Origin: Nitrospirota bacterium | GTDB lineage: Bacteria; Nitrospirota; UBA9217 | Length of the DNA stretch: 64,000 nucleotides | Assembly: GCA_963751455.1 (NCBI GenBank) | Contig: CAVVUN010000006.1 | Coordinates: 228,589-292,588, forward strand | Direction: 5' to 3' | In this document: positions 36,159 through 48,824 of the stretch, in pieces | Numbering within the stretch: the stretch's first letter is position 1 | Layout of the letters: the number at the start of each line of letters is the position of its first letter | Program-made: the position numbers and the translations under genes | The notes under the pieces: generated by a model | Databases searched by the model: none | Seen by the model: the letters and a program-made list of their open reading frames with translations, nothing else | What the model was told of the DNA's origin: nothing

Positions 36159-36488
36159 CTAATCAACGAGCATTTCCTGAAGCACTGCCTTGACATCAAG
36201 CACTGTATTCTGATCAAGGCGGCCGAGTTTTTTGATCAATCGTTTTTTGTCGATCGTACGGATTTGGTCCAGCACAATCCATCCATCTTTGCCTTTGAAT
36301 CGAAACGAAACCCTGGTTGGGTAAGCGTGCCCCTGAGATGTCATGGGAGCGATAATAACAGTTTCGATGTGCTTATTCATTTCGTCGGGAGAGACCACAA
36401 CGCAAGGACGGACTTTCTTGATTTCATGACCTATGGTGGGATCGAGATTGACAAGGTGAATTTCGTACTGTTTGATCACCACTCCCAC
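36159..36488 (-). CDS. PemK/MazF toxin
   Basis: NLDPTIGHEIKKVRPCVVVSP, DQIRTIDKKRL. Confidence 0.93.
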   Translation of the reverse strand: MGVVIKQYEIHLVNLDPTIGHEIKKVRPCVVVSPDEMNKHIETVIIAPMTSQGHAYPTRVSFRFKGKDGWIVLDQIRTIDKKRLIKKLGRLDQNTVLDVKAVLQEMLVD

Positions 36489-36724
36489 TCCTTCATATCG
36501 AGATCCATATTATCGGAGATGAGAAGATTGTCTTCCTTGAGTTTCTTCATCTGCTTGAAGGACCCTTCCCAATCTTTGCGAGGCTCCTGTTTAGCAGGTT
36601 TTATGACGATCGCACCTTTCTCCACTTCCATGATCGCTTCCTTTTCAATATGACACTGCTCAAGAACAGCCTTGGGAATTCTGACGCCCTTTGAGTTTCC
36701 TATGGGAATTATCATCGTTTTCAT
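36476..36724 (-). CDS. AbrB/MazE antitoxin
   Basis: IGNSKGVRIPK; overlaps the toxin start. Confidence 0.92.
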   Translation of the reverse strand: MKTMIIPIGNSKGVRIPKAVLEQCHIEKEAIMEVEKGAIVIKPAKQEPRKDWEGSFKQMKKLKEDNLLISDNMDLDMKEWEW

Positions 36725-36725
36725 A

Positions 36726-36759
36726 GTGTAATTATAATGTAATTACACCGGGCAGTCAA
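36726..36759 (-). promoter_or_regulatory. Promoter and operator of the mazEF-like operon
   Basis: TTGACT-N17-TATAAT; palindrome GTGTAATTA-N5-TAATTACAC. Confidence 0.75.
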
Positions 36760-36797
36760 GACGTTTCCCGTCTCCGGCAGGCCATATTGTGCATGGG

Positions 36798-37187
36798 CTA
36801 TGCTTTTGATTTTACCGCATGCTGTTCCAGCCACTTTATTGCATCCTCCACCGATATTTTTTTCAATGCCATATCCAAGGCAAAGTGCACAATCTCCTGC
36901 TGTTCAGACATTAGCCGGAATCCGTTGCGTCGGCAAAATAATGAAGCTGAAGCAATGGCCGTTCTTTTATTCCCGTCAATGAAAGGATGGTTGTTGATGA
37001 GAGATTGCATCAGGGCAGCGGCCTTGGACCAGACGTTGGGATAGAGATCATGTCCGTCAAAGGTCGCCTGCGGACGACCGACCGCTGATTTCAGGAGACC
37101 TATATCCCTGACTCCATGCGCCCCGCCCGACTCATCAATGATCCTTGCATGGAGAAAGAGAACCTGCTCGGCGATAAGATATCTCAC
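36798..37187 (-). CDS. Doc/Fic-family toxin
   Basis: GVRDIGLLKSAVGRP, HPFIDGNKRTA. Confidence 0.93.
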   Translation of the reverse strand: MRYLIAEQVLFLHARIIDESGGAHGVRDIGLLKSAVGRPQATFDGHDLYPNVWSKAAALMQSLINNHPFIDGNKRTAIASASLFCRRNGFRLMSEQQEIVHFALDMALKKISVEDAIKWLEQHAVKSKA

Positions 37188-37432
37188 TTCCTGGCAAGTT
37201 CCTTGAGGGCTGGACGGTATTGTTCTATGAATTCGTTCACCTGTGCAACGAATTCCCGGTCAATGCCTTTTGCGTATTTCTTTTTCCGGACCGGCTCAAT
37301 CATGATCCGATCATGTTTTTCGTCAAGGACAACATCGACCTCGGATCCGACTGCGAGATCAAGCTTGCTGAGATACTCTGCGGGAATTGAGACGCCCCGG
37401 CTGTTTCCTACAGCGAATACTTTTCTGTGCAT
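37184..37432 (-). CDS. AbrB-family antitoxin
   Basis: RKVFAVGNSRGVSIP, C-terminal YRPALKELA; operator ATGTTATAA-N5-TTATAACAT at 37443-37465. Confidence 0.88.
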   Translation of the reverse strand: MHRKVFAVGNSRGVSIPAEYLSKLDLAVGSEVDVVLDEKHDRIMIEPVRKKKYAKGIDREFVAQVNEFIEQYRPALKELARK

Positions 37433-37589
37433 ACAACCCCCCATGTTATAACCGAATTATAACATATGCTTTATGGTTGTAAAGATAATTTTGAAGCGAA
37501 AGGAGAAGCCTTTTGACGTTTATAGGAAAACAGGAATGTTCGTCTCTGCTGTTATAGCCGGCATAGCCTGGGAGGTAGCGCGATTGCCC

Positions 37590-38701: not shown

Positions 38702-39982
38702 TTATTCCGCCGGCGGCGATACGATCGTTTCCCGCGGATGCTCCTGAAAAAAACGCGTCATCTCTCGCGAGGCGTCCGGACCGGCGGGGTCGGTGTACGA
38801 GCCGTTGCCGTTCCCGCCCGACCAGCCATGGCCGGCGCCGTGGATGGTCCACTGCTCCGCAACGACCTGCCCGCGGGCGTCGCGGTAGATCTCGCAGGTG
38901 TAGGCCCGCCCGCCCGCCACCCGCCCCTGACGCATCGTTACCGACGGAGCTGCCCTATCCGTGGCGACCGGCTTACCGGCGACCCACTGTCGCAGCAGGT
39001 CATCCGCGTTGGCCGGGTGGACGGTCGCATCCTGGTCCCCATGGAAGAGGATCAGCGGGACGGTGCGGCCGACGCCCATCTGCCCCGACTGCCCTCCCTG
39101 TCGCATGGCCGCAAACGCCGACGGCAGGTCGTGGGCGGAGCCGGCGGCGAGGCCGGAATGCACACCCACGGCCACATAGAGGTCGGGGTAGGTCGCCGCC
39201 ATGATCGCCGCCATCGCTCCTCCCGCCGACAGACCCGCCACGTATACGCGGCGCGCATCGACCTGGTACTCGGCCATGACCTGACGAGTAATGCCGGCGA
39301 TGAGCGAAGGCTCGCCCTGGTCCCGCTGCTGGTGGGCGGCCTGGAACCAGTTCCAGCACTTGGAGATATTGGCGCCGGCAGCTTGCGCGGGATAGGCGAC
39401 GAGAAAACCATTCTCCTCCGCCAGAAAATTCATGCGGGTGCCGACGGCGAAATCGTCGGGGTCCTGGGTACAACCGTGCAGCATCACGACCAGCGGCATG
39501 GCCTGCCCGTGATACTCGCTGGGGATATAGAGTTTGTAGGCGCGAGTGCCGGCCGCGTTGGTATAAGTCGCCGCGATCCACTGGCCCTCCGCCGGGGCCG
39601 GCGGCGAGATTGGTCTGCCGGGACGTTTCAAGGGCATACCCGGCAACGGCCTGCCGCTCAGTGGCATACCGGGCAGTGTCATACCGGGCAGTGGACGAAT
39701 AATTGCGCGACGGGCCGTCGTCGCTGCGTCGATGGGCCGCTCTGCGCCGCGTCGGGCGTACATCCTCCGCATCGGTTGGCGCGCCCGCGTCAGTGTCGGG
39801 TGCCTCTACCGGCTCGACAGTGAGTCGGAATCTCTCTTCGATCGGCTCCGTGTTCGGAGGAACGGCTGGGCGTGTGCCCCAGCCCTAAAGTGCTGTTGGA
39901 TAAGGAGGGTCGCTTCGTTCAATCGACCCTCGCGCGTGAGGCGTGTCGCCTCGAACATTGCGTTGTACATCTTGTCGTTCAT
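38702..39982 (-). pseudogene. PHB depolymerase-family esterase with disrupted N-terminal linker
   Basis: Catalytic domain intact (MLHGCTQ, CWNWF, GLSAGG, FHGDQD, GHGWSGG). The family N-terminus (EATRLTREGRLNEAT) starts at 39982 in the same frame but hits TAG at 39806-39808. Confidence 0.75.
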
Positions 39983-40428: not shown

Positions 40429-40593
40429 TTACCATCCTCCTTACATCCACATGCCATCCAAATACCATCCAACTAGATGGTAGAATTATATCCAAGGAAA
40501 CAGGTCAAGTCAAGGGCCGCGCAACAATGGATACTAAAGGCTGTCATTTGTGAGACGGATGAAGGATTATATATTAAGAAAGGGGATGATGAT

Positions 40594-40881
40594 ATGAACT
40601 ACAAGACGCACAGAAAAGAACTCCTCAAAGACAAGGCGGTCAAGGCAGAACATGAAAAGCTGCTGCCCGAGTACGAACTCGCAAAGAGCATCATTCAGCA
40701 ACGCTTAAAAAAGAAAATGACGCAGTCAGGCGTAGCTAAGAAGACCGGCATGCCGCAGCCCACCATTGCGAGGATCGAGGGGGTGACACACGGGCTTCCG
40801 AGACTTGCAACCCTGAAGAAAATAGCGAAGGCGCTGGATGCGGAATTGATAATTAAACTGCAGCCGAAAAAGATTGCATAG
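40594..40881 (+). CDS. XRE HTH protein (HigA-like orphan antitoxin)
   Basis: RLKKKMTQSGVAKKTGMPQPTIARIE; no toxin gene upstream. Confidence 0.82.
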   Translation: MNYKTHRKELLKDKAVKAEHEKLLPEYELAKSIIQQRLKKKMTQSGVAKKTGMPQPTIARIEGVTHGLPRLATLKKIAKALDAELIIKLQPKKIA

Positions 40882-41219
40882 TGAAGATGCCGGATCGCGT
40901 TCCCGGTTGCTGCTATTGACAATGACCTAAGCAACGCAACGGGTGCAACAACATCCCCGTCTTGGGTCCTTAAGATGTCCCCGGGGAAAGCACGCCGAGA
41001 ACCAACGTCCCCAAAGTCGTCGTCCCCAAAGTCGTCCCACAACAGTATGGACCTGACCCTGAGAGGTTCCCTGCTGAGCGAGACCTCTGCAAGTTGGGAG
41101 CATATCTGATCAATTCCTTATTTCCTTACCCCATTTGACCTCTAAACTTATTTGACAAAGCCCCGTGAATCGGGTAACTATGGGGGTAAAATAAATTAAT
41201 GAAAGGAGGACCGAAAATA

Positions 41220-41312
41220 ATGCCAAAACCTATCTATGAACTTACAGCAGTATCCGGGGTTAAACCACCCACTATGCCGGATGGAATTACTTGGTCAGTG
41301 GCCTTTGACTGA
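41220..41312 (+). CDS. 30-aa small ORF
   Basis: AAAGGAGG RBS, ATG, MPKPIYELTAVSGVKPPTMPDGITWSVAFD*, downstream terminator. Confidence 0.45.
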   Translation: MPKPIYELTAVSGVKPPTMPDGITWSVAFD

Positions 41313-41384
41313 GTGATGACCACGAGCGACCTACTGAAAACAATCAACTAGATTAGCATCGGTCCGAGCTCGATGGAAGAATCG

Positions 41385-41418
41385 ACGGGAGAGACAAGTT
41401 CTCTCCCGTTTTGATTTT
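41385..41418 (+). terminator. Intrinsic terminator
   Basis: Perfect 10-bp stem ACGGGAGAGA/TCTCTCCCGT followed by TTTGATTTT. Confidence 0.65.
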
Positions 41419-41646
41419 GGCTTTAAGCATGCTTTGCCAAGCTAGCCGGTATACAAGAGCAAGCAGGAGTCCCGTTCCATCCGAAGCACACAAGGAGGAC
41501 CAAGGAGGGGACGTTGTGTCTGAAATGGATTTACCTGCCAATCTCTACAAGTCACTCTGAGACACAACGCCCCTGTCAGCTCTTCTTGACAGGGGGACTA
41601 TAGGATGTCCCTTTTCGCTTCCGTGTGCTAACGCCTCCCGTAGTCC

Positions 41647-41856
41647 TTAACAACCCTTGTATTCGATCCAGTATCTTTTCGTTGGAGGAGATGTTTCGTA
41701 ATTCGGTTGTTCATATAAACGATAGGTTAATGGCTCGGTTAAATAAGAGCCAAAGACTTGTCGAAAACCTTGACTGTGCAATAGTGTAATTTGATGACTC
41801 CGAACATTATCATTCGCGCAATCAAGAGTCCCGTGGCCGTTTCGATAGTTATTCAT
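41647..41856 (-). CDS. 69-aa hypothetical protein directly after the CBASS E2 gene
   Basis: GGAGG RBS before the ATG; 13-bp gap after the E2 stop. Confidence 0.45.
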   Translation of the reverse strand: MNNYRNGHGTLDCANDNVRSHQITLLHSQGFRQVFGSYLTEPLTYRLYEQPNYETSPPTKRYWIEYKGC

Positions 41857-41869
41857 GAACCCTCCAAAA

Positions 41870-42301
41870 TTATCTGTCAGCGCTCTCTTTCACCGTGGGA
41901 TGAATGCCACCCGCACACCAACTTCCGGTTGCCAGCCATATTTCGTAATGAAGTAGCCATTCCGACATCCAGGGAACAATGGTCTGACTGAGAAGCATAT
42001 CACCTCGCCACTCACTTGCTCGTGGGTAGTAAAGGCAAAGCTTTTCCCCAGGATATGTATGCGGCAACCTTTGTCCTTTTGGAACATGAAGAACAGGATT
42101 TATTACGTTAATTTTAGGAGAATCACCCAGCCTATAAATGACACGCACTTTATATTTTTTGCTGAGAGGAGACGGCACAAGCTCAGCTACCCAGGTAAGA
42201 ACTCCTCTTTCAACATGAGCCTGAGATTCAGGAAAAAGTATCTTAAGATGGTGTGCCTGCACCAATGGATTAATTTTTTTGACGGGGATTTTATTTGCCA
42301 T
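41870..42301 (-). CDS. Prokaryotic E2 (ubiquitin-conjugating-like) protein of short type II CBASS
   Basis: LPHTY...LCLYYP...EW...IVPWMSEWLLHYEIWLATGSW.AGGIHP; overlaps the CD-NTase stop. Confidence 0.82.
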   Translation of the reverse strand: MANKIPVKKINPLVQAHHLKILFPESQAHVERGVLTWVAELVPSPLSKKYKVRVIYRLGDSPKINVINPVLHVPKGQRLPHTYPGEKLCLYYPRASEWRGDMLLSQTIVPWMSEWLLHYEIWLATGSWCAGGIHPTVKESADR

Positions 42302-43472
42302 AGAATGTATGATCTTTTACTTTTGTCGATCCAACTATACCAAGCGTTCCGGTACCGGCCGCCATCATTAATTTACCTGAAACACGTTCACTTCTATATG
42401 AGTCACCGAAGTTCATAACAGCAGTGTTCAATGTCCGTTCTCCAAATGCTGCCTTTAACGATTCCGATATTTCGTTTATTCCGCGCTTGTTGAGTGCAGT
42501 ATTCAGATCCACTTTTACCTGTCGGAGCCAAACCTTGAACATTTCAGCACGTCGAGGGTTAGTTTGCCATTTATCGGCAAAATTTTCTTTTGGGTTAACG
42601 GGGTTCGCGACCCAATGCACGTCGCCTACGGTCTCGATATACTTCGGCATACCGTCGACGATGGTGGATAGAGCGTCGAAAAGGTCTCGCTCATTATTGT
42701 AAGCTCGAGCTGCAAGGGTAGTTATAATTATCGAAATCGGTTTGTTATCGGGATCATTCTGAAATTTCATATCGCGATGTCTTTTCAGAATCTGAATTGC
42801 CCGCTGAAGCGGAGTTTTGACGCTAAAGTCAGGTACATCGTCGATCTTTACACCTCGCTCAGCAGCGACAATACGCTTTTCTTCTGTCAATATGGTCAAC
42901 ATGCGGTTACCGAACCATTCCGCATAACCCTTTGGGTTGCTGCGTGGCCAATCACGATCGTAATTCCACGTCACTTTGTCAGTAATGCATATCGCATGTT
43001 TGGCATATTCAACAGGAACTCCGAGAGCGATTAACAATTCAGCGCTATCAGGAATGGCAGGCAGGACATCCATATGGAATTTCGATCCGTCAGCATAATT
43101 CAACGTCCAGCAACGCCTACCTTCTGTGTCGAGCATTTGAGCATATGCCTCATTTGCTCTCAAACGATCACCTATCATTTTTTTGAGAGTTTGTTGAGTA
43201 ACTTTTAATTTTGATATATTCAACTGACAAACAAGATCAATATCATATTCATCCTCATCAGAGACCGGTTTGATGACAGTACCCAATCGGAAAGAACCCT
43301 GAGGATAAATATCTGGGCTGTAATATGATAGAGGTGAATCTTCTTTGCTCAACCATTTTCCAACAGCTTGATAATGTTCTTCCGCCTTCCGGTAACGCGA
43401 TTCCGATATATCAAGTGCGTCGGAGACGAACCGAAGCAGGCCACTAAATTGAGTTGATGTTTCTGTTACCAT
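42291..43472 (-). CDS. CBASS cyclic oligonucleotide synthase (CD-NTase/SMODS)
   Basis: YPQGSFRLGT, EYDIDL, FHMDVLPA, SNPKGYAEWF, PISIIITTL, NPVNPKENFADKW, C-terminal HTFYGK. Confidence 0.93.
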   Translation of the reverse strand: MVTETSTQFSGLLRFVSDALDISESRYRKAEEHYQAVGKWLSKEDSPLSYYSPDIYPQGSFRLGTVIKPVSDEDEYDIDLVCQLNISKLKVTQQTLKKMIGDRLRANEAYAQMLDTEGRRCWTLNYADGSKFHMDVLPAIPDSAELLIALGVPVEYAKHAICITDKVTWNYDRDWPRSNPKGYAEWFGNRMLTILTEEKRIVAAERGVKIDDVPDFSVKTPLQRAIQILKRHRDMKFQNDPDNKPISIIITTLAARAYNNERDLFDALSTIVDGMPKYIETVGDVHWVANPVNPKENFADKWQTNPRRAEMFKVWLRQVKVDLNTALNKRGINEISESLKAAFGERTLNTAVMNFGDSYRSERVSGKLMMAAGTGTLGIVGSTKVKDHTFYGK

Positions 43473-44424
43473 TGATTGGATCCTCCACTTTGAGATGGTA
43501 AAGAGGTTTAAATTCTGCAGAACGATGGCCTAAGAATGTTTGCTCAAAGACCGGGATAAAATGTCGGCTCTCGTGTGCTGCTTTGCCCATCAACTCCTTT
43601 TCTGTTAATTTGTCTAACTCGAACAAACCTTCAGGTACTTTAGGATTGATCCGAATCACCCTGTCTTTGCCAAGAAGATGCTGAGCTTGAGTATGAGTTC
43701 CTATACTTTGCCCCCGGAGAATCACATCCACAGCCGCTTCTCTCCATTGGAATAATCCGCCATTGTCTAGATTTGCGGATCTCGTCTTAACGTCGCTTGT
43801 TGTAGCGAGACTGAGAACGGTTATTTCATTTAAAGGCTGTCCGAGCATGCTGACAGCTTCTGAAATACCGACTAATGTCGGGTTGTTGGCCCATACCCCT
43901 CCATCAATAAAGCGAATGTTATCCAAATCATTAAAGGCGGGGAAGTAAGTCGGTGCAGCGGCAGTTGCTAGCGCTACTTTCCATATGGGTATTTTGAAGT
44001 CACGTTTCAATCGTTCATGATGTGGTGTTTTAAAAAGGTACACATCGTCATCACTCAAGCTATAGGATGGAATTACCAGCCTTTTTTTACTGTCGCCGAG
44101 AAGCTTTTTCTGAAAACATTTCATCAAAGCTTCTTTGAGTGGCTCCGAACTAAATTTACTTCTCCAGTATTTCCTTACTGATATTGCCGACATTCCATAA
44201 AAAATGCACGGGCCTTGATCGATATAAAATTTTAAAATCTCTCGTGGTTTCATACCTACACCTAGACCGAGTGCTATTATTCCGCCTGTAGAAGTACCGG
44301 CGATTAAATCAAAATGATCGATAATCGAAATATTAAGGTCTTCCTCGATGTGAGCCAGTATAGCAGCTGAAAATATTCCTTTTATCCCGCCGCCATCTAA
44401 TGCAAGAATATGGAATTTACTCAT
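43444..44424 (-). CDS. Patatin-like phospholipase CBASS effector (CapV-like)
   Basis: DGGGIKG, GTSTGG, AAPTYF, IDGGVWANNP; overlaps the CD-NTase start. Confidence 0.92.
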   Translation of the reverse strand: MSKFHILALDGGGIKGIFSAAILAHIEEDLNISIIDHFDLIAGTSTGGIIALGLGVGMKPREILKFYIDQGPCIFYGMSAISVRKYWRSKFSSEPLKEALMKCFQKKLLGDSKKRLVIPSYSLSDDDVYLFKTPHHERLKRDFKIPIWKVALATAAAPTYFPAFNDLDNIRFIDGGVWANNPTLVGISEAVSMLGQPLNEITVLSLATTSDVKTRSANLDNGGLFQWREAAVDVILRGQSIGTHTQAQHLLGKDRVIRINPKVPEGLFELDKLTEKELMGKAAHESRHFIPVFEQTFLGHRSAEFKPLYHLKVEDPINGNRNINSI

Positions 44425-44521
44425 AATGTTTCCTCTATCGGTGGCTCCACCTGGAAATGCGGCTTTATTTAGGGTTAAAGAAAAGGCGAGGAATTAGCAT
44501 ATCGACCTCGCCAGATAGTGC

Positions 44522-44695
44522 TCATTTTTCCTTCCGCACGCCCTTGAAAGGATCATTGTCGGACTTCTGGTCAATAAAGCGACCGTTCTCTGTGTCACGT
44601 TTTACCCAGCGATCGTTATGAGGATTATGCGTCTGAGAGCGGTCAGTTACTTGGCCCGCCCTGTGCCCATCGCCATACGGTGGATTCTTCGCCAT
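44522..44695 (-). CDS. 57-aa hydrophilic hypothetical protein (below the ORF-track cutoff)
   Basis: GGAAGGAGGTG RBS; MAKNPPYGDGHRAGQVTDRSQTHNPHNDRWVKRDTENGRFIDQKSDNDPFKGVRKEK*. Confidence 0.8.
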   Translation of the reverse strand: MAKNPPYGDGHRAGQVTDRSQTHNPHNDRWVKRDTENGRFIDQKSDNDPFKGVRKEK

Positions 44696-44722
44696 GTTTT
44701 CACCTCCTTCCCTTAGACTGAA

Positions 44723-45139
44723 TTATGCCCCGTCACCTGATTTAGCAAGAAAGACAGCCGTGGCCAGCAGACCAACGAATAATCCTGCAGCTTGTAACTG
44801 TGTGCTTTCTTTTGATCCCGTGGCCACATAACGGGCGAATTGCTCGCAGTTATTCCCGAACAGATCATACATATCGTTTTCCAGAGCCCTGTCTATTCTT
44901 TCTATGGCACGGGGTTCATCGGTGATCTGACCCAGCAGATCCCATTGCCCTGTATTATCAAGCCAATCCGTCCGAATACGGGGCGGTGTTTGATGAATTA
45001 CCACAGGTGAGTTTCCATATTTTGGAAGGCGAAGTCGGTTTCCAATATCAAGAATCGCATAATGATCGACCAAAACGCCTTTAACTTGGCTTTTTTGCTT
45101 TATGAGATAAAGACCATTGCTTAATTTGTAATCCGACAT
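44723..45139 (-). CDS. LRAT/PLAAT-like permuted NlpC/P60 thiol hydrolase with C-terminal hydrophobic helix
   Basis: DHYAI, VVIH, YDLFGNNCEQFARYVATG (NCExF) and tail AAGLFVGLLATAVFLA. Confidence 0.8.
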   Translation of the reverse strand: MSDYKLSNGLYLIKQKSQVKGVLVDHYAILDIGNRLRLPKYGNSPVVIHQTPPRIRTDWLDNTGQWDLLGQITDEPRAIERIDRALENDMYDLFGNNCEQFARYVATGSKESTQLQAAGLFVGLLATAVFLAKSGDGA

Positions 45140-45186
45140 TAGAGATCGCCTTTCATGAAATACATTGATAATCAAATAAAAAGAAG

Positions 45187-45213
45187 GATAGCTTTAAGTA
45201 CATCTTATTTAAA
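45187..45213 (-). promoter_or_regulatory. 27-bp repeated promoter/operator, copy 1
   Basis: GATAGCTTTAA-N8-TATTTAAA; the minus strand reads TTTAAA-N17-TATCCT. Confidence 0.6.
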
Positions 45214-45228
45214 AGGTTCTCAAAAAAA

Positions 45229-45813
45229 TTATACTACTGGTGCATACAAATACTGCTTTCCTTGTGGGTCGATAATTTCCTTTCTTCTAACTAATCTAGA
45301 TTTATAAAGTTTACCCAAATACATACTTGCAGTATAAATATCTTTTTTAAAAACTAAATCTGCGATATCTCTTGCCGTTGACTGGCCTACTCGCATTATA
45401 TAGTCATAAATAAGAAAGTCGAAAACTTCTCTTTTTTTTGATTGGCTCTCTCCATAAACGATTTTTGGCCGCTTCTTATTTTTCTGTTTAATAAGACACA
45501 TGATCTTTCTATGTGCAGATACGAGTTCGAGATCGTATAAAGAACTTTCTGGTATATTTTGGCTTATAAGATAACATTCTTCTGGCTTGCTTACAATTTC
45601 CTTCATCAGCAATACTATAACTTCGTCCGCAATTGAGGAGTTAAAAGATTTTATTTTATCAAAATCTAGATAGATAATGTCGTCCGGTTGCTTAAGATTT
45701 TTTTTAATCTCTTTCTCAATTTCCGCTCTAATCTCGACGCCCCAATCTCGAGAGTTTAAGTCGGCCCCCTTAATCCCGAGTCTTTTTTTTATCTGATAAA
45801 TCGAAATGATCAT
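45229..45813 (-). CDS. STAS-like + winged-helix repressor (CapS-like)
   Basis: IYLDFDKIKSFNSSIADE (STAS phospho-Ser loop); TARDIADL...ASMYLGKLYKSRLVRR (wHTH). Confidence 0.75.
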   Translation of the reverse strand: MIISIYQIKKRLGIKGADLNSRDWGVEIRAEIEKEIKKNLKQPDDIIYLDFDKIKSFNSSIADEVIVLLMKEIVSKPEECYLISQNIPESSLYDLELVSAHRKIMCLIKQKNKKRPKIVYGESQSKKREVFDFLIYDYIMRVGQSTARDIADLVFKKDIYTASMYLGKLYKSRLVRRKEIIDPQGKQYLYAPVV

Positions 45814-45833
45814 AAATAAACAAACGCCAATGA

Positions 45834-45860
45834 GATAGCTTTAAACTGACTCTATTTAAA
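45834..45860 (-). promoter_or_regulatory. 27-bp repeated promoter/operator, copy 2
   Basis: GATAGCTTTAA-ACTGACTC-TATTTAAA, with arms identical to copy 1. Confidence 0.6.
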
Positions 45861-45862
45861 CC

Positions 45863-46798
45863 CTATAATAGACTATGTCGGGTATCTGTGTCAAGATGAA
45901 AGTGCAGCTCACCAAAAGCAAGAATAATAGCAATTCTAGTGCCTCTTAGAAGCGGCAAATTAATATATTCTTTTAACTGATTTTCAGGATTAAGCAATAT
46001 TGCACTGTCACCCGAATTTATCCATAAATAGCCAAGTGTATCAGTAACAATTCGTCGCACTTCATACAGGCCAAAACCGCGATCACCCAGCCCAGAAACA
46101 CCCGGCTCCATTGCCATTTTAAGGTAATCAGAATCATGTTGAAAATTATATTTGTATTTATCTTCCAGACTGTTCTTTATTCCAATACCATAATCAACAA
46201 CAGCTAGCTTGACGACCTCGAAACCCGTTCTTTGATAGTTATACCGCTGAATTGCAACAAATCCCTCACTTCGGCTATGGGTATAAACGTTGGTACATAT
46301 TTCGGACATCACCTTTACAAATTGGTCAACATCCATTTTATTTCTAAAATTGCGAAGGATACGTTTGGCACGTTGCCGAAATTTTACGATAATATCGTCC
46401 ACATCTAGTTTGCCTTGCTCAATATTGGTACTTATTTTTTGAATTTCTAACAATTTATCTGTCTCGTATTTTCGCAGATACGTATTCTCAAGATTGGGCG
46501 AGTTGAACCATTCCGACCCTTGTTTATAGAAATCCATCCGCTCTAAATACAACAAGAAGTCGTCTTTGACGGCAATAATTGTTATCTTTTTTGCCGTTCT
46601 TTTGAAAACGTATTTCCCAAGAAATAGTAAACCCAGCAATCCATACGGAGAGATGAAAGACACGTTCCTTAAGTTGAAGTAAACAGCGCTATCTAAAGTT
46701 AATGTAGATTTGTTAATTTTATCAATTACGAACCTGAATTTGTCAACATCTTCAAGCCCATCCGGGATGTCTATATTGTAGATAAGAGGCATTTGCAT
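45863..46798 (-). CDS. STAS + GHKL anti-sigma-factor-kinase-like protein (CapK-like)
   Basis: FNLRNVSFISPYGL, YLERMDF, SEICTNVYTHS (N-box), VDYGIGI, GFGL, GT; no phospho-His box. Start at 46798 or 46792. Confidence 0.75.
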   Translation of the reverse strand: MQMPLIYNIDIPDGLEDVDKFRFVIDKINKSTLTLDSAVYFNLRNVSFISPYGLLGLLFLGKYVFKRTAKKITIIAVKDDFLLYLERMDFYKQGSEWFNSPNLENTYLRKYETDKLLEIQKISTNIEQGKLDVDDIIVKFRQRAKRILRNFRNKMDVDQFVKVMSEICTNVYTHSRSEGFVAIQRYNYQRTGFEVVKLAVVDYGIGIKNSLEDKYKYNFQHDSDYLKMAMEPGVSGLGDRGFGLYEVRRIVTDTLGYLWINSGDSAILLNPENQLKEYINLPLLRGTRIAIILAFGELHFHLDTDTRHSLL

Positions 46799-46902: not shown

Positions 46903-47748
46903 TCATGCGCCTTCCCACTCCCCTATTTCAAGAGCGTTTAGAAGTTCAGTCACTTTTTCGAATGCCCGCCGCATCAGGATCGCCCGATCATCTTTATCAT
47001 CCGTTTCCAGGAAATCAGCCACCCATGCCGGACCAACGTGTTTCATCGTGGCGAACTTCGACCTGATTTTACCGAGCCCTTCCATAACGAGCTTATTTTT
47101 CAGATGAGGTTTGAATTCCTGAATGATCGCCTCTGCGCCGCCGGGATAATGCTCGATACAGAAAAAGATGTCATAAGCATCCTTTTCTTTCAATCGTTCA
47201 TACATCGCCATTCCTTTCATGACAAGGAACGGCACGATGCCCGCCACTTTTACGCTTACTTTATCCAACCCGCCGCCGGGCAGTTCCCCCTCGATCGTGA
47301 CGGTTATGGTCGAGCCGAAAGCAAGGTCGCATCCTCGCGTTTTTCGCGCACGGGCATCCTGCACAACCTGCGTTCTTCGGCCCTTTCCGGTCCCGCCGTA
47401 CTCGCCTGCCATGAGATCCACAGCGACCCTCACCGGCCCCAGGCCCTCCGCGTCTACGGTCCGGTAGAATCGGAACGGCTGGGCTTTATCCTGCTCATAT
47501 CCCCGCTTCAGGAAAGCTTTTAAGATGGACTGATATGTATCATTGGGGATCCTGGTGAAATCGAGGGCGACGTCTATGTCAAGACTGCCGATGTGCGGTT
47601 CGTCGGACTGCGGAAAGAGAAGCGTAGGCGTCCATCCGCCGATAATCACCATCTCGTCCTTGATCTCGCCGAAAAGATGAATAAGCTCCACAAGCACCGA
47701 TTTGCAGGCTTTCACCTCTTCCGGAGCATAATCGCTCTTGCTTGCCAT
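46903..47748 (-). CDS. AbiEii-like nucleotidyltransferase toxin (type IV TA)
   Basis: VIIGGW...HIGSLDIDVAL, VMKG...R.KEKDAYDI. Confidence 0.8.
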   Translation of the reverse strand: MASKSDYAPEEVKACKSVLVELIHLFGEIKDEMVIIGGWTPTLLFPQSDEPHIGSLDIDVALDFTRIPNDTYQSILKAFLKRGYEQDKAQPFRFYRTVDAEGLGPVRVAVDLMAGEYGGTGKGRRTQVVQDARARKTRGCDLAFGSTITVTIEGELPGGGLDKVSVKVAGIVPFLVMKGMAMYERLKEKDAYDIFFCIEHYPGGAEAIIQEFKPHLKNKLVMEGLGKIRSKFATMKHVGPAWVADFLETDDKDDRAILMRRAFEKVTELLNALEIGEWEGA

Positions 47749-48824
47749 CCGGGCTTGATCCTCTCATTTAAGATAAACTGCGCCGCTTCCTCGCCCCTGC
47801 CCATGTAGCTTTTGAGGTCGAGGTAAAGCTGGATATTTGATACCACCTGTGCGCCTTTCACATCCTGAAGCCCGTAAAATACTCCGTCATCGTAAGGTGA
47901 AAGAATTGTAACGTTGGCGCCGGAGTCGACTTTTTTGAACTGCAATGACTTGGCGAGGTCGATACTATCGCCCTTGACGTAGACGAAGAATCGCGGAAAG
48001 GTTACGAAGGGAGCCACCCTTCCGGCGCCCGTAAAAAGGGCAAGCCCGTATTCCCATCCCCACTTTTTGCACACCGACCGGATCGCGGCCGCCAGTTCCT
48101 CATCCTTCAGTCCCGAATAATAAGAGTAACCCTCATTGAGCGTGTATGAGTATTTCGCCGACCACGCCGCGAGCGCCTTTTCCGGATCAGCAAGGAAGAA
48201 CTGTTTATTTTCTTCCGCGATCCACTCCTGGTCCAGGAGCGCCTGTTTCATCCGCGAGGCAAGACCGATGCTGATTTTGGCCTCTTTCGATATTTCTTCC
48301 ACACGCCATCTCCGCGCCGGTTCAGCAAAAAGTACGCGGAGCACCCGGCTGGACTTAGGGAAAAAGAGGGATTTGGCGACCCGAGGCGCGGCAAAGGGAT
48401 TCGGGATGCCGGTCTTGTCGATAAAAATCCACTGAAAAGAAATCAAGGCATTGCCGGCCAGGTCAACGCACCCGATGCCGGCTTCTTTGCAGATCCGCCT
48501 GCTGGCGTCGCTCAGGTAGGGAGCAATAATGATCCCGTATGCGTCTTGCTTGCCCTGGCGGTATTTCTTTAATTGCTCGGCAGCCACCCTGACAAGACGC
48601 GGCTCTCCCTGCGTTTTGACCTCAACGGCAAATTGAATGGGTTTGCCCGAAACAAGGGCATTCAGAAGAAGGTCTACTTGGGTATCGCCAAGCCGAACGT
48701 CGGTCCTGGAACCCTTTAAGCGAACGACGGGAATTTCCGCAAAGAGGGCCTCCAGCCGCTCACGGGCCTCTTTTACCGCCTTGCGCTCAATTTTTTGTTT
48801 CACTATTTCAGCTTGTTTCACCAT
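47712..48824 (-). CDS. AbiEi-like antitoxin/regulator (type IV TA)
   Basis: N-terminal REase-like fold, central wHTH (KSSRVLRVL...ISIGLASR), C-terminal GANV...PYDDGVF...QLYLDL...GRGEEAA. Confidence 0.82.
   Translation of the reverse strand: MVKQAEIVKQKIERKAVKEARERLEALFAEIPVVRLKGSRTDVRLGDTQVDLLLNALVSGKPIQFAVEVKTQGEPRLVRVAAEQLKKYRQGKQDAYGIIIAPYLSDASRRICKEAGIGCVDLAGNALISFQWIFIDKTGIPNPFAAPRVAKSLFFPKSSRVLRVLFAEPARRWRVEEISKEAKISIGLASRMKQALLDQEWIAEENKQFFLADPEKALAAWSAKYSYTLNEGYSYYSGLKDEELAAAIRSVCKKWGWEYGLALFTGAGRVAPFVTFPRFFVYVKGDSIDLAKSLQFKKVDSGANVTILSPYDDGVFYGLQDVKGAQVVSNIQLYLDLKSYMGRGEEAAQFILNERIKPGWQARAIMLRKR

What the first reader, a model, noticed from the sequence alone, without database searches (positions are those of the whole stretch)
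41647..46798. Extended CBASS locus: CapK/CapS-like regulators, LRAT-like hydrolase, micro-protein, patatin, CD-NTase and lone E2
Seen: eight co-oriented, tightly spaced, AT-rich ORFs. Known: patatin + CD-NTase + stand-alone E2 without E1 or JAB is the short type II CBASS layout, and the cyclase tail FYGK fits E2-dependent trimming and conjugation at a C-terminal Gly. STAS-kinase plus STAS-wHTH pairs (CapK/CapS) are reported transcriptional regulators of defence operons. Inference: the LRAT-like gene, the 57-aa gene and the 69-aa tail ORF are not standard CBASS parts but lie in or at the end of the same apparent transcription unit, so this may be an undescribed CBASS subtype with extra components.
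Basis: partly seen in the sequence, partly recalled or inferred. Interest (0 to 1): 0.85.

Follow-up and report, generated by a model that had tools for sequence, protein, structure and literature searches.

The report
Damage-switched CBASS with swappable leader genes
This is a known type of bacterial anti-virus operon (short CBASS) behind a likely DNA-damage switch; its two odd front genes are not CBASS parts but recur at the head of unrelated defence operons, where they may act as a shared, untested add-on.

Summary
All eight ORFs are real. The core is a short type II (IIB) CBASS: patatin, a clade-G cyclase ending FYGK, and a lone E2 with SmCdnG/E2 catalytic residues. Upstream is a divergent, HTH-less CapK/CapS pair; a 27-bp TTAA-N11-TTAA motif occurs twice in the 5.7-Mb genome, flanking capS, and is kept in a relative. 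CapKS plus IIB CBASS is published (49 of 443 rows), and this scan noted CapKS-CBASS before on other DNA.

A new CBASS subtype is not supported. Among 80 cyclase-relative loci the LRAT-like gene was found in 0, the 57-aa gene in 1, the tail ORF in 0. The extras travel with regulators and defence islands instead. The 57-aa protein (PADLOC candidate PDC-S38) lies within one gene of a CapH/P-, CapW-, LexA- or CapK/S-type regulator in 12 of 17 phylum loci, heading Bub-like, Pycsar, restriction and CBASS operons. The LRAT-like protein is a PLAAT-fold, predicted membrane-anchored Cys-His-His enzyme, with defence neighbours in 12 of 18 loci and CBASS in one. The tail ORF is a rare real gene of unknown context. 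The system is known; the leader-gene pattern was not found in my literature searches.

The parts
46903..48824 (-). Context: AbiEi/AbiEii-type (type IV) toxin-antitoxin pair, co-oriented, 104 bp upstream of capK; may supply capK's transcript
   Evidence: AbiEi_2 E 5e-9, above cut-off; AbiEii E 0.0025, below cut-off; promoter-like site 11 of 12 at 48861-48833
45863..46798 (-). CapK-like STAS-GHKL kinase, 311 aa, without the N-terminal HTH
   Evidence: HATPase_c 29 bits, cut-off 26.4; N-box N170, D202-x-G-x-G, G241FGL; 61% to the L002 homologue; weak match to V. gigantis CapK
45865..45894 (-). Predicted capS promoter (TTGACA-18-TATTAT) inside the 3' end of capK
   Evidence: 11 of 12 consensus match; same hexamers and spacing in the relative L183/L002. 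The scan as a whole is at chance level (15 found, 13.6 expected)
45834..45860 (-). Predicted CapS operator 1 (TTAA-N11-TTAA), just downstream of the -10 box
   Evidence: TTTAAATA-N8-TTAAAGCTATC occurs twice in 5.72 Mb, once on each side of capS; half-sites kept with a different spacer in L183
45229..45813 (-). CapS-like STAS-wHTH repressor, 194 aa; predicted phospho-acceptor S60
   Evidence: DUF4325 E 6e-6, above cut-off; 23% to V. gigantis CapS, E 2e-5; S60 in 30 of 30 aligned rows
45187..45213 (-). Predicted CapS operator 2, between capS and the LRAT-like gene
   Evidence: as for operator 1; no promoter was called here
44723..45139 (-). LRAT/PLAAT-like permuted NlpC/P60 enzyme, 138 aa, H26-H49-C98, C-terminal hydrophobic helix; leader gene 1
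   Evidence: 188 homologues; triad 41/42, 42/42, 42/42 and hydrophobic tail 41 of 42; model pLDDT 83.7; PLAAT3 top Foldseek hit; PLAAT4 Z 7.8
44522..44695 (-). 57-aa micro-protein of PADLOC candidate family PDC-S38; leader gene 2
   Evidence: E 1.7e-31 over 1-57; 76 plasmid records across several phyla; 26 of 401 phylum genomes
43444..44424 (-). Patatin/CapV-type phospholipase effector
   Evidence: NF041079 281 bits, cut-off 200; GGGIKG, GTSTG and DGG intact
42291..43472 (-). Clade-G CD-NTase; G392 corresponds to SmCdnG G406
   Evidence: PADLOC cyclase E 3e-146; 8HSB_A E 1.2e-43, aligned through TFYG
41870..42301 (-). Stand-alone E2: H81, C89, H134 and a C-terminal K138
   Evidence: PADLOC E2 E 1e-46; 8HSB_B E 9e-22; positions
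41647..41856 (-). 69-aa protein of a small unnamed family; likely passenger
   Evidence: six relatives; no Pfam or PADLOC family for the relatives scanned; own genome only, 1 of 401
41570..41595 (-). GC-rich hairpin after the tail ORF; possible end of the transcript
   Evidence: its T-tail is weak and it overlaps a 27-bp stretch repeated on contig C3

Best explanation
This is a short, E2-only (type IIB) CBASS anti-phage operon (patatin, clade-G cyclase, lone E2) behind a divergent CapK/CapS pair that likely switches it on after DNA damage; the LRAT-like and 57-aa genes recur at the head of unrelated defence operons and so are likely interchangeable leader genes, not CBASS parts, and the 69-aa ORF is likely a passenger. 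Proposed sequence: (1, inferred from CapKS) CapS dimers sit on the two TTAA-N11-TTAA sites; single-stranded DNA activates the kinase, which phosphorylates S60 and releases them. (2, inferred from SmCdnG/E2) E2 trims K393, takes G392 on C89, and conjugates or polymerises the cyclase. (3, established for CBASS, untested here) the cyclic nucleotide activates the patatin, which destroys the membrane. (4, inferred, about 40%) the LRAT-like protein is a tail-anchored Cys-His-His phospholipid hydrolase or acyltransferase acting in parallel, independent of the cyclase. (5, inferred, about 30%) the 57-aa protein is a co-induced, basic, largely unfolded peptide that binds nucleic acid or a conserved host partner, whichever system follows it.
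For: Core identity and intact catalytic residues. Regulator layout, invariant serine and twin palindromes conserved in a 71%-identical relative with different spacers: against PMC13373217. The same capK-capS-LRAT-micro head precedes Pycsar in L002; WYL-LRAT precedes Pycsar in L003 and long type II CBASS in L004; HTH/IrrE-LRAT precedes a Bub-like operon in L015. PDC-S38 lies within one gene of such a regulator in 12 of 17 phylum loci and directly beside one in 5 of 10 plasmid loci read; about 0.4% of the own genome lies that close to such a regulator. A canonical V. gigantis capKS-IIB CBASS carries the same micro-gene plus a YdjM membrane protein in this slot.
Against: No activity, transcript or binding was measured. 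The kinase lacks the HTH, matches canonical CapK only weakly (26 bits), and the ssDNA-stacking tryptophan could not be placed. Both palindromes have 11-bp spacers, against 1 and 10 in the paper. No promoter was called between capS and the LRAT-like gene. Only 4 of 18 LRAT-family loci follow such a regulator directly, three of them in this phylum and two (L003, L004) close kin; 3 of 18 show no defence neighbour. PDC-S38 has no regulator next to it in 5 of 17 phylum loci and does head CBASS operons elsewhere (L087, L105, L173, L179), so a CBASS-related role is not excluded. Structural scores for the LRAT model are moderate (Foldseek E 0.02; Z 7.8), and the micro-protein model is unusable (pLDDT 54.6).
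Confidence: 0.75

Rival explanations
1. An undescribed CBASS subtype in which the LRAT-like, 57-aa and 69-aa genes are dedicated components.
For: Tight co-oriented spacing. PDC-S38 heads four other CBASS operons (L087, L105, L173, L179) and the LRAT-like gene one (L004).
Against: LRAT 0 of 80, micro 1 of 80 and tail 0 of 80 cyclase-relative loci; 25 of the 34 distinct E2-bearing ones have enough upstream DNA to show the leader genes and 25 enough downstream DNA to show the tail. The full set was seen nowhere else. Both leader genes also precede non-CBASS systems.
Confidence: 0.08
2. The LRAT-like protein is a DeSI/PPPDE-type isopeptidase that stands in for the missing JAB and deconjugates the cyclase.
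For: Weak Peptidase_C97 match (E 0.006); DeSI fold Z 5.6; 3 of 18 family loci hold ubiquitin-like machinery (L004, L008, L015).
Against: PLAAT structures score higher; 41 of 42 members carry a hydrophobic C-terminal helix; L004 has its own JAB; L002 and L003 have Pycsar and no conjugation genes; the S. marcescens E2 trims and cleaves by itself, and its H87, C101 and H152 are kept here.
Confidence: 0.07
3. The extra genes are unrelated cargo caught in a defence hotspot, with no functional tie to the regulator or to defence.
For: The contents of these islands shuffle freely; 5 of 17 PDC-S38 loci and 14 of 18 LRAT loci lack a directly adjoining regulator; this reading fits the tail ORF well.
Against: PDC-S38 takes the first slot behind four unrelated regulator families in several phyla at 45-90% identity, far above the background of about 0.4%; kin are not independent, so no test statistic is given.
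Confidence: 0.1

Closest known systems
E2-only (short type II, IIB) CBASS of Serratia marcescens: SmCdnG + E2 (PDB 8HSB; bioRxiv 10.1101/2022.05.25.493364)
   Same: Clade-G cyclase alignable to the C-terminal TFYG-x; E2 with the H87/C101/H152 equivalents; no E1 or JAB.
   Different: Patatin effector in place of 2TM-SAVED; no exonuclease; E2 is shorter and its C-terminal lysine lies 4 residues after the second His, against 7; upstream regulators and leader genes are present.
CapK/CapS controllers (PMC13373217); 49 of 443 rows of Dataset EV2 are CBASS type IIB
   Same: Kinase then STAS-wHTH gene upstream of the immune operon; invariant STAS serine; TTAA palindromes on both sides of capS.
   Different: No N-terminal HTH on the kinase; about 23% identity to a canonical CapS; both spacers are 11 bp; closer (27-35%) to a lineage-wide chromosomal pair that precedes DNA-repair genes; the dataset has no row containing 'Nitrospir' or 'Pycsar'.
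PADLOC phage-defence candidate PDC-S38 (candidate set of bioRxiv 10.1101/2024.01.29.577857)
   Same: Full-length match to the 57-position model.
   Different: Listed as a single-gene candidate; not named in that preprint's main text.
PLAAT/HRASLS (LRAT family, PF04970) and picornaviral H-box/NC 2A proteins
   Same: Permuted NlpC/P60 fold, His-His-Cys triad with the NCE motif, C-terminal hydrophobic helix.
   Different: Bacterial, 132-150 aa, in defence islands; under 20% identity; below the Pfam cut-off; activity untested.
DUF2188, DUF3892 and YegP small genes behind CapH/CapP or CapK/CapS (bioRxiv 10.1101/2022.04.27.489752; PMC13373217)
   Same: Small uncharacterised genes in the first position of damage-regulated operons; seen near cyclase relatives or PDC-S38 in L110, L164 and L180.
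   Different: Different families: the 57-aa protein has no Pfam match.

Membership tests
Short type II (IIB) CBASS | CD-NTase with an intact nucleotidyltransferase centre | tested here: met
   QGS at 58-60 and D135; D77 and D79 counted by hand from the translation
Short type II (IIB) CBASS | Adjacent cyclic-nucleotide effector | tested here: met
   NF041079 281 bits, cut-off 200; catalytic motifs intact
Short type II (IIB) CBASS | Lone E2 with catalytic Cys and two His; no E1 or JAB | tested here: met
   H81, C89, H134 align with H87, C101, H152 of 8HSB_B; no JAB or E1 gene among the ten ORFs scanned
Short type II (IIB) CBASS | Conserved Gly near the cyclase C-terminus | tested here: met
   G392-K393 against G406-E407; similar tails in most E2-linked relatives
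Short type II (IIB) CBASS | Cyclic nucleotide made; protection against phage | not testable with these tools
   SmCdnG makes 3',2'-cGAMP; the product here is unknown
CapK/CapS | STAS-GHKL kinase immediately followed by a STAS-wHTH gene, upstream of an immune operon | tested here: met
CapK/CapS | N-terminal HTH on CapK | tested here: not met
   about 50 residues missing against V. gigantis CapK; L002 starts at the same place; the HTH was dispensable in the paper
CapK/CapS | Invariant phospho-acceptor serine in the CapS STAS domain | tested here: met
   S60 in 30 of 30 rows, V. gigantis CapS included
CapK/CapS | TTAA palindromes upstream and downstream of capS | tested here: met
   spacer 11 bp at both sites, against 1 and 10 in the paper
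CapK/CapS | ssDNA-stacking aromatic residue (W68 in E. roggenkampii CapK) | tested here: inconclusive
   the STAS alignment to V. gigantis CapK is too divergent to place it
CapK/CapS | ssDNA-activated phosphorylation and de-repression | not testable with these tools
   needs a bench assay
LRAT/PLAAT (permuted NlpC/P60) | Permuted papain-like fold with a His-His-Cys triad | tested here: met
   Atlas LRAT clusters at 0.94-0.96; structural scores are moderate
LRAT/PLAAT (permuted NlpC/P60) | C-terminal hydrophobic membrane helix | tested here: met
   41 of 42 members; helix 113-137 in the model
LRAT/PLAAT (permuted NlpC/P60) | Pfam PF04970 gathering score | tested here: not met
   22.6 bits against 24.3; most listed homologues carry PF04970
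LRAT/PLAAT (permuted NlpC/P60) | Phospholipase A or acyltransferase activity | not testable with these tools
   needs a bench assay
PDC-S38 | Full-length match to the PADLOC model | tested here: met
   E 1.7e-31, positions 1-57 of 57
   0, 1 and 0 of 80 loci; LRAT with CBASS in 1 of 18 loci

The most novel reading that the evidence does not exclude
Bacteria keep a portable, system-independent first-response module at the head of DNA-damage-inducible defence operons: a highly conserved 57-aa peptide (PDC-S38), often with a small membrane enzyme (a PLAAT-like hydrolase here, YdjM in V. gigantis). It is switched on by four unrelated ssDNA sensors (CapK/S, CapW, CapH/P, LexA) and adds protection on its own, whether CBASS, Pycsar, Bub or a restriction system follows. 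The LRAT-like protein would be a bacterial anti-phage counterpart of human PLAAT enzymes.
Probability: 0.3. Interest if true: 0.75.

Novelty: new variant of a known kind. Interest (0 to 1): 0.45.

Why it matters
The CBASS and its switch add only a divergent member from another phylum. The useful result is the pattern of the extras: a small gene that annotation often misses sits first in operons of unrelated defence systems, including a canonical capKS-CBASS locus, so cloned-operon studies may have carried or dropped it without knowing. It and the PLAAT-like enzyme are cheap single-gene tests for a shared accessory arm of damage-induced immunity. The predicted operators and S60 also make the regulation directly testable.

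Tried and rejected
The cyclase was not found with this query in 100 related genomes. LRAT-like gene: no match in plasmids, phages or viral contigs; of 44 genome loci I dropped 26 that matched only a short or weak stretch (L020-L045) before counting. PDC-S38: no viral-contig relative confirmed; of 28 matches outside the own genome I read the 17 strongest (16 full-length, one partial) and dropped 11 short ones; a tblastn hit on contig C4 lies antisense within another ORF and was rejected. Its AlphaFold model was too poor to search. Tail ORF: no genomic context obtained (1 of 401 genomes, the own one); seven repeat-type hits among the 13 were dropped. Rfam found no RNA in 40800-41700 beyond a chance match. 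Sequencing runs: none was listed. CapK and CapS had no meaningful PDB sequence match, so a V. gigantis locus served as the canonical reference. The promoter and terminator scan was at chance level overall. The top VIA hit for the LRAT model was an uncharacterised Euglena complex subunit (Z 9.1, rmsd 4.8), not followed up. No complex prediction was run. Literature searches with no relevant hit; one search listed three papers, and only one, a classification of papain-like enzymes, holds the term LRAT.
Full report
Observation. The eight ORFs are present on the minus strand at the stated coordinates, with gaps of 49, 89, 27, 97, -29, -11 and 13 bp and a GC content of 0.41 in a genome of about 0.51. 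An AbiE-type toxin-antitoxin pair ends 104 bp upstream. The cyclase was not found in 100 related genomes, which fits a recent acquisition. Two family-level relatives carry record titles naming Nitrospirota or Nitrospirae, so the window likely comes from that phylum.

The CBASS core. The 326-aa protein passes the curated cut-off for the CBASS phospholipase (281 against 200 bits), with its catalytic motifs intact. The 393-aa protein is a CD-NTase that aligns with S. marcescens CdnG through the terminal TFYG (8HSB_A, E 1.2e-43). G392-K393 therefore corresponds to G406-E407, where E2 trims and conjugates the cyclase (bioRxiv 10.1101/2022.05.25.493364, parts 1-2 of 6 read). The 143-aa protein matches that E2 (E 9e-22) and keeps H81, C89 and H134. 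No E1 or JAB gene is present. This is a short type II (IIB) CBASS. Its product and activity were not tested.

The regulators. The 311-aa protein has STAS-like and GHKL parts, and the 194-aa protein a DUF4325 STAS-like domain. PMC13373217 (abstract, parts 1-2 of 12, sections 11, 13 and 14, passages, and supplementary file 9 part 1 of 4 plus a term search) describes CapK/CapS as an ssDNA-activated kinase and a repressor that binds TTAA palindromes on both sides of capS. Its dataset lists type IIB CBASS in 49 of 443 rows. Here the motif TTTAAATA-N8-TTAAAGCTATC occurs exactly twice in 5.72 Mb, once on each side of capS. That motif was defined from these two sites; the independent support is a relative whose CapS is 71% identical and which keeps both TTAA-N11-TTAA cores and the upstream promoter hexamers while the spacers differ. 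S60 is invariant in 30 of 30 aligned CapS-like proteins. Against full membership: the kinase lacks the N-terminal HTH, matches a canonical CapK only weakly, and the ssDNA-binding tryptophan could not be placed. As canonical reference I used a V. gigantis plasmid locus with the layout that the dataset gives for that species; that it is the same strain is recalled, not checked.

Do the extras travel with this CBASS? A metagenome scan gave 80 loci of cyclase relatives, 58 distinct at 90% identity. Of these, 34 have a detectable E2; 25 of the 34 have at least 1,700 bp upstream and 25 at least 750 bp downstream. Across all 80, the LRAT-like gene was found in 0 (tblastn and profile), the 57-aa gene in 1 (L105), and the tail ORF in 0 (tblastn only). 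CapK/CapS was also 0, but the window's divergent proteins would miss canonical copies. The arrangement is therefore not a recurring subtype in this sample.

The LRAT-like gene. It has 188 homologues with H26, H49 and C98 conserved in 41, 42 and 42 of 42 aligned and a hydrophobic C-terminal helix in 41 of 42. The model (pLDDT 83.7) finds human PLAAT3 first in Foldseek (probability 0.99, E 0.02). In the wide search PLAAT4 (Z 7.8, rmsd 3.1, 88 aligned), two bacterial permuted NlpC/P60 enzymes, a picornaviral 2A protein and DeSI (Z 5.6) follow an uncharacterised Euglena subunit. PMC10318531 (passages) groups these as permuted papain-like lipid enzymes and deconjugases. Of 44 genome loci I kept the 18 near-full-length ones and scanned 96 hand-picked neighbouring ORFs, most of them from a list of 165. 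Twelve loci have clear defence or candidate-defence neighbours, three weak ones (L010, L018, L019) and three none (L005, L006, L016). Only L004 has CBASS, of the long type with its own JAB. Four follow a damage-type regulator directly: L002 (capK-capS-LRAT-micro-Pycsar), L003 (WYL-LRAT-micro-Pycsar-Wadjet), L004 (WYL-LRAT-CBASS) and L015 (HTH/IrrE-LRAT, then a Bub-like operon). L003 and L004 are close kin.

The 57-aa gene. It is PADLOC candidate PDC-S38. The candidate set comes from bioRxiv 10.1101/2024.01.29.577857 (part 1 of 5 and a term search read; S38 is not in the main text; supplements closed). It occurs in 26 of 401 phylum genomes and 76 plasmid records from several phyla. In the 17 strongest phylum matches, 12 lie directly behind, or one gene from, an HTH/IrrE pair or fusion (6), LexA (2), WYL (1) or CapK/S-like gene (3). 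One more closes an operon headed by HTH/IrrE, and 4 have no such regulator. Downstream lie Bub-like operons (4), Pycsar (2), a restriction system (1) and another patatin-cyclase-E2 CBASS (L087). Of 10 plasmid loci that I chose and read, 5 have WYL or CapS adjacent, 4 do not, and 1 has no annotation. About 0.4% of the own genome lies within 1.2 kb of such a regulator (a rough background, and kin are not independent). The V. gigantis locus reads restriction system, capK, capS, PDC-S38, YdjM, HNH-SAVED, cyclase, E2: the same slot holds the same peptide and a different small membrane protein. DUF2188, DUF3892 and YegP are reported in comparable positions (bioRxiv 10.1101/2022.04.27.489752, passages). 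The peptide's fold could not be predicted.

The tail ORF. It is a real gene: one relative at 74% over its whole length and five at 36-42%, with no Pfam family. It was found in no other of 401 phylum genomes, and I have no context for its relatives, so its role is open; a passenger is the simplest reading.

Mechanism. Shown by sequence: gene identities, catalytic residues, the two palindromes and the neighbourhood counts. Inferred from the two published systems: damage-triggered release of CapS, E2-driven trimming and conjugation of the cyclase, and activation of the patatin. Inferred from fold and context only: the LRAT-like protein as a tail-anchored phospholipid hydrolase or acyltransferase working in parallel (about 40%; a deconjugase role about 7%), and the peptide as a co-induced nucleic-acid- or host-protein-binding accessory (about 30%).

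Novelty. My searches found no paper on PDC-S38 or on an LRAT-family gene in anti-phage defence and none on YdjM with CBASS; subscription journals and bioRxiv supplements are outside those searches. Verdict: a new variant of a known system, not a new subtype. The lead worth following is the shared leader module. Interest 0.45.

Noticed in passing
G000:C15:1712211-1720019; loci L184-L211: A chromosomal CapK-like/CapS-like pair is lineage-wide (capS-like match in 86 of 401 phylum genomes, 49 of 63 in the family). The capS-like gene precedes pgpA/cinA, rmuC, mutS or a UvrD-type helicase, which suggests that it heads DNA-repair operons.
   Followed up: partly
G000:C15:1715127; L188-L193, L203, L211: A conserved TCAATTGA-[AT]-TCAATTGA repeat just behind a TTGACA box lies between the chromosomal capK-like and capS-like genes: a candidate operator different from the TTAA type. 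Variable cargo, including PDC-S38 and a restriction nuclease in L086, is inserted between the two genes.
   Followed up: partly
L173:5176-5544: A YdjM-family membrane protein sits between PDC-S38 and the effector in the V. gigantis capKS-CBASS operon; no paper holding both YdjM and CBASS was found.
   Followed up: partly
L084:7208-8596 and L105:4676-6042: PDC-S38 twice follows an MqsA-like/Panacea antitoxin gene, possibly a fifth kind of upstream regulator.
   Followed up: no
window 46903-48824: AbiE-type pair with a strong promoter-like site and no called terminator before capK; a different AbiE pair adjoins the WYL-LRAT head in L003 and L004.
   Followed up: no
window 36159-37444 and 40477-40881: A cluster of small toxin-antitoxin-like genes and an HTH_3 gene lies downstream of the locus; the toxin-antitoxin labels are by eye, only the HTH was scanned.
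   Followed up: no
window 38702-39772: A GC-rich (about 0.65) 356-aa esterase-like ORF stands out from its surroundings; label by eye.
   Followed up: no
window 41040-41073 and 41585-41611: Short stretches repeated elsewhere in the genome (C15 and C3); no Rfam family.
   Followed up: partly
L110: Two CD-NTase matches and a patatin downstream of the E2 in one locus: possibly tandem CBASS cassettes.
   Followed up: no
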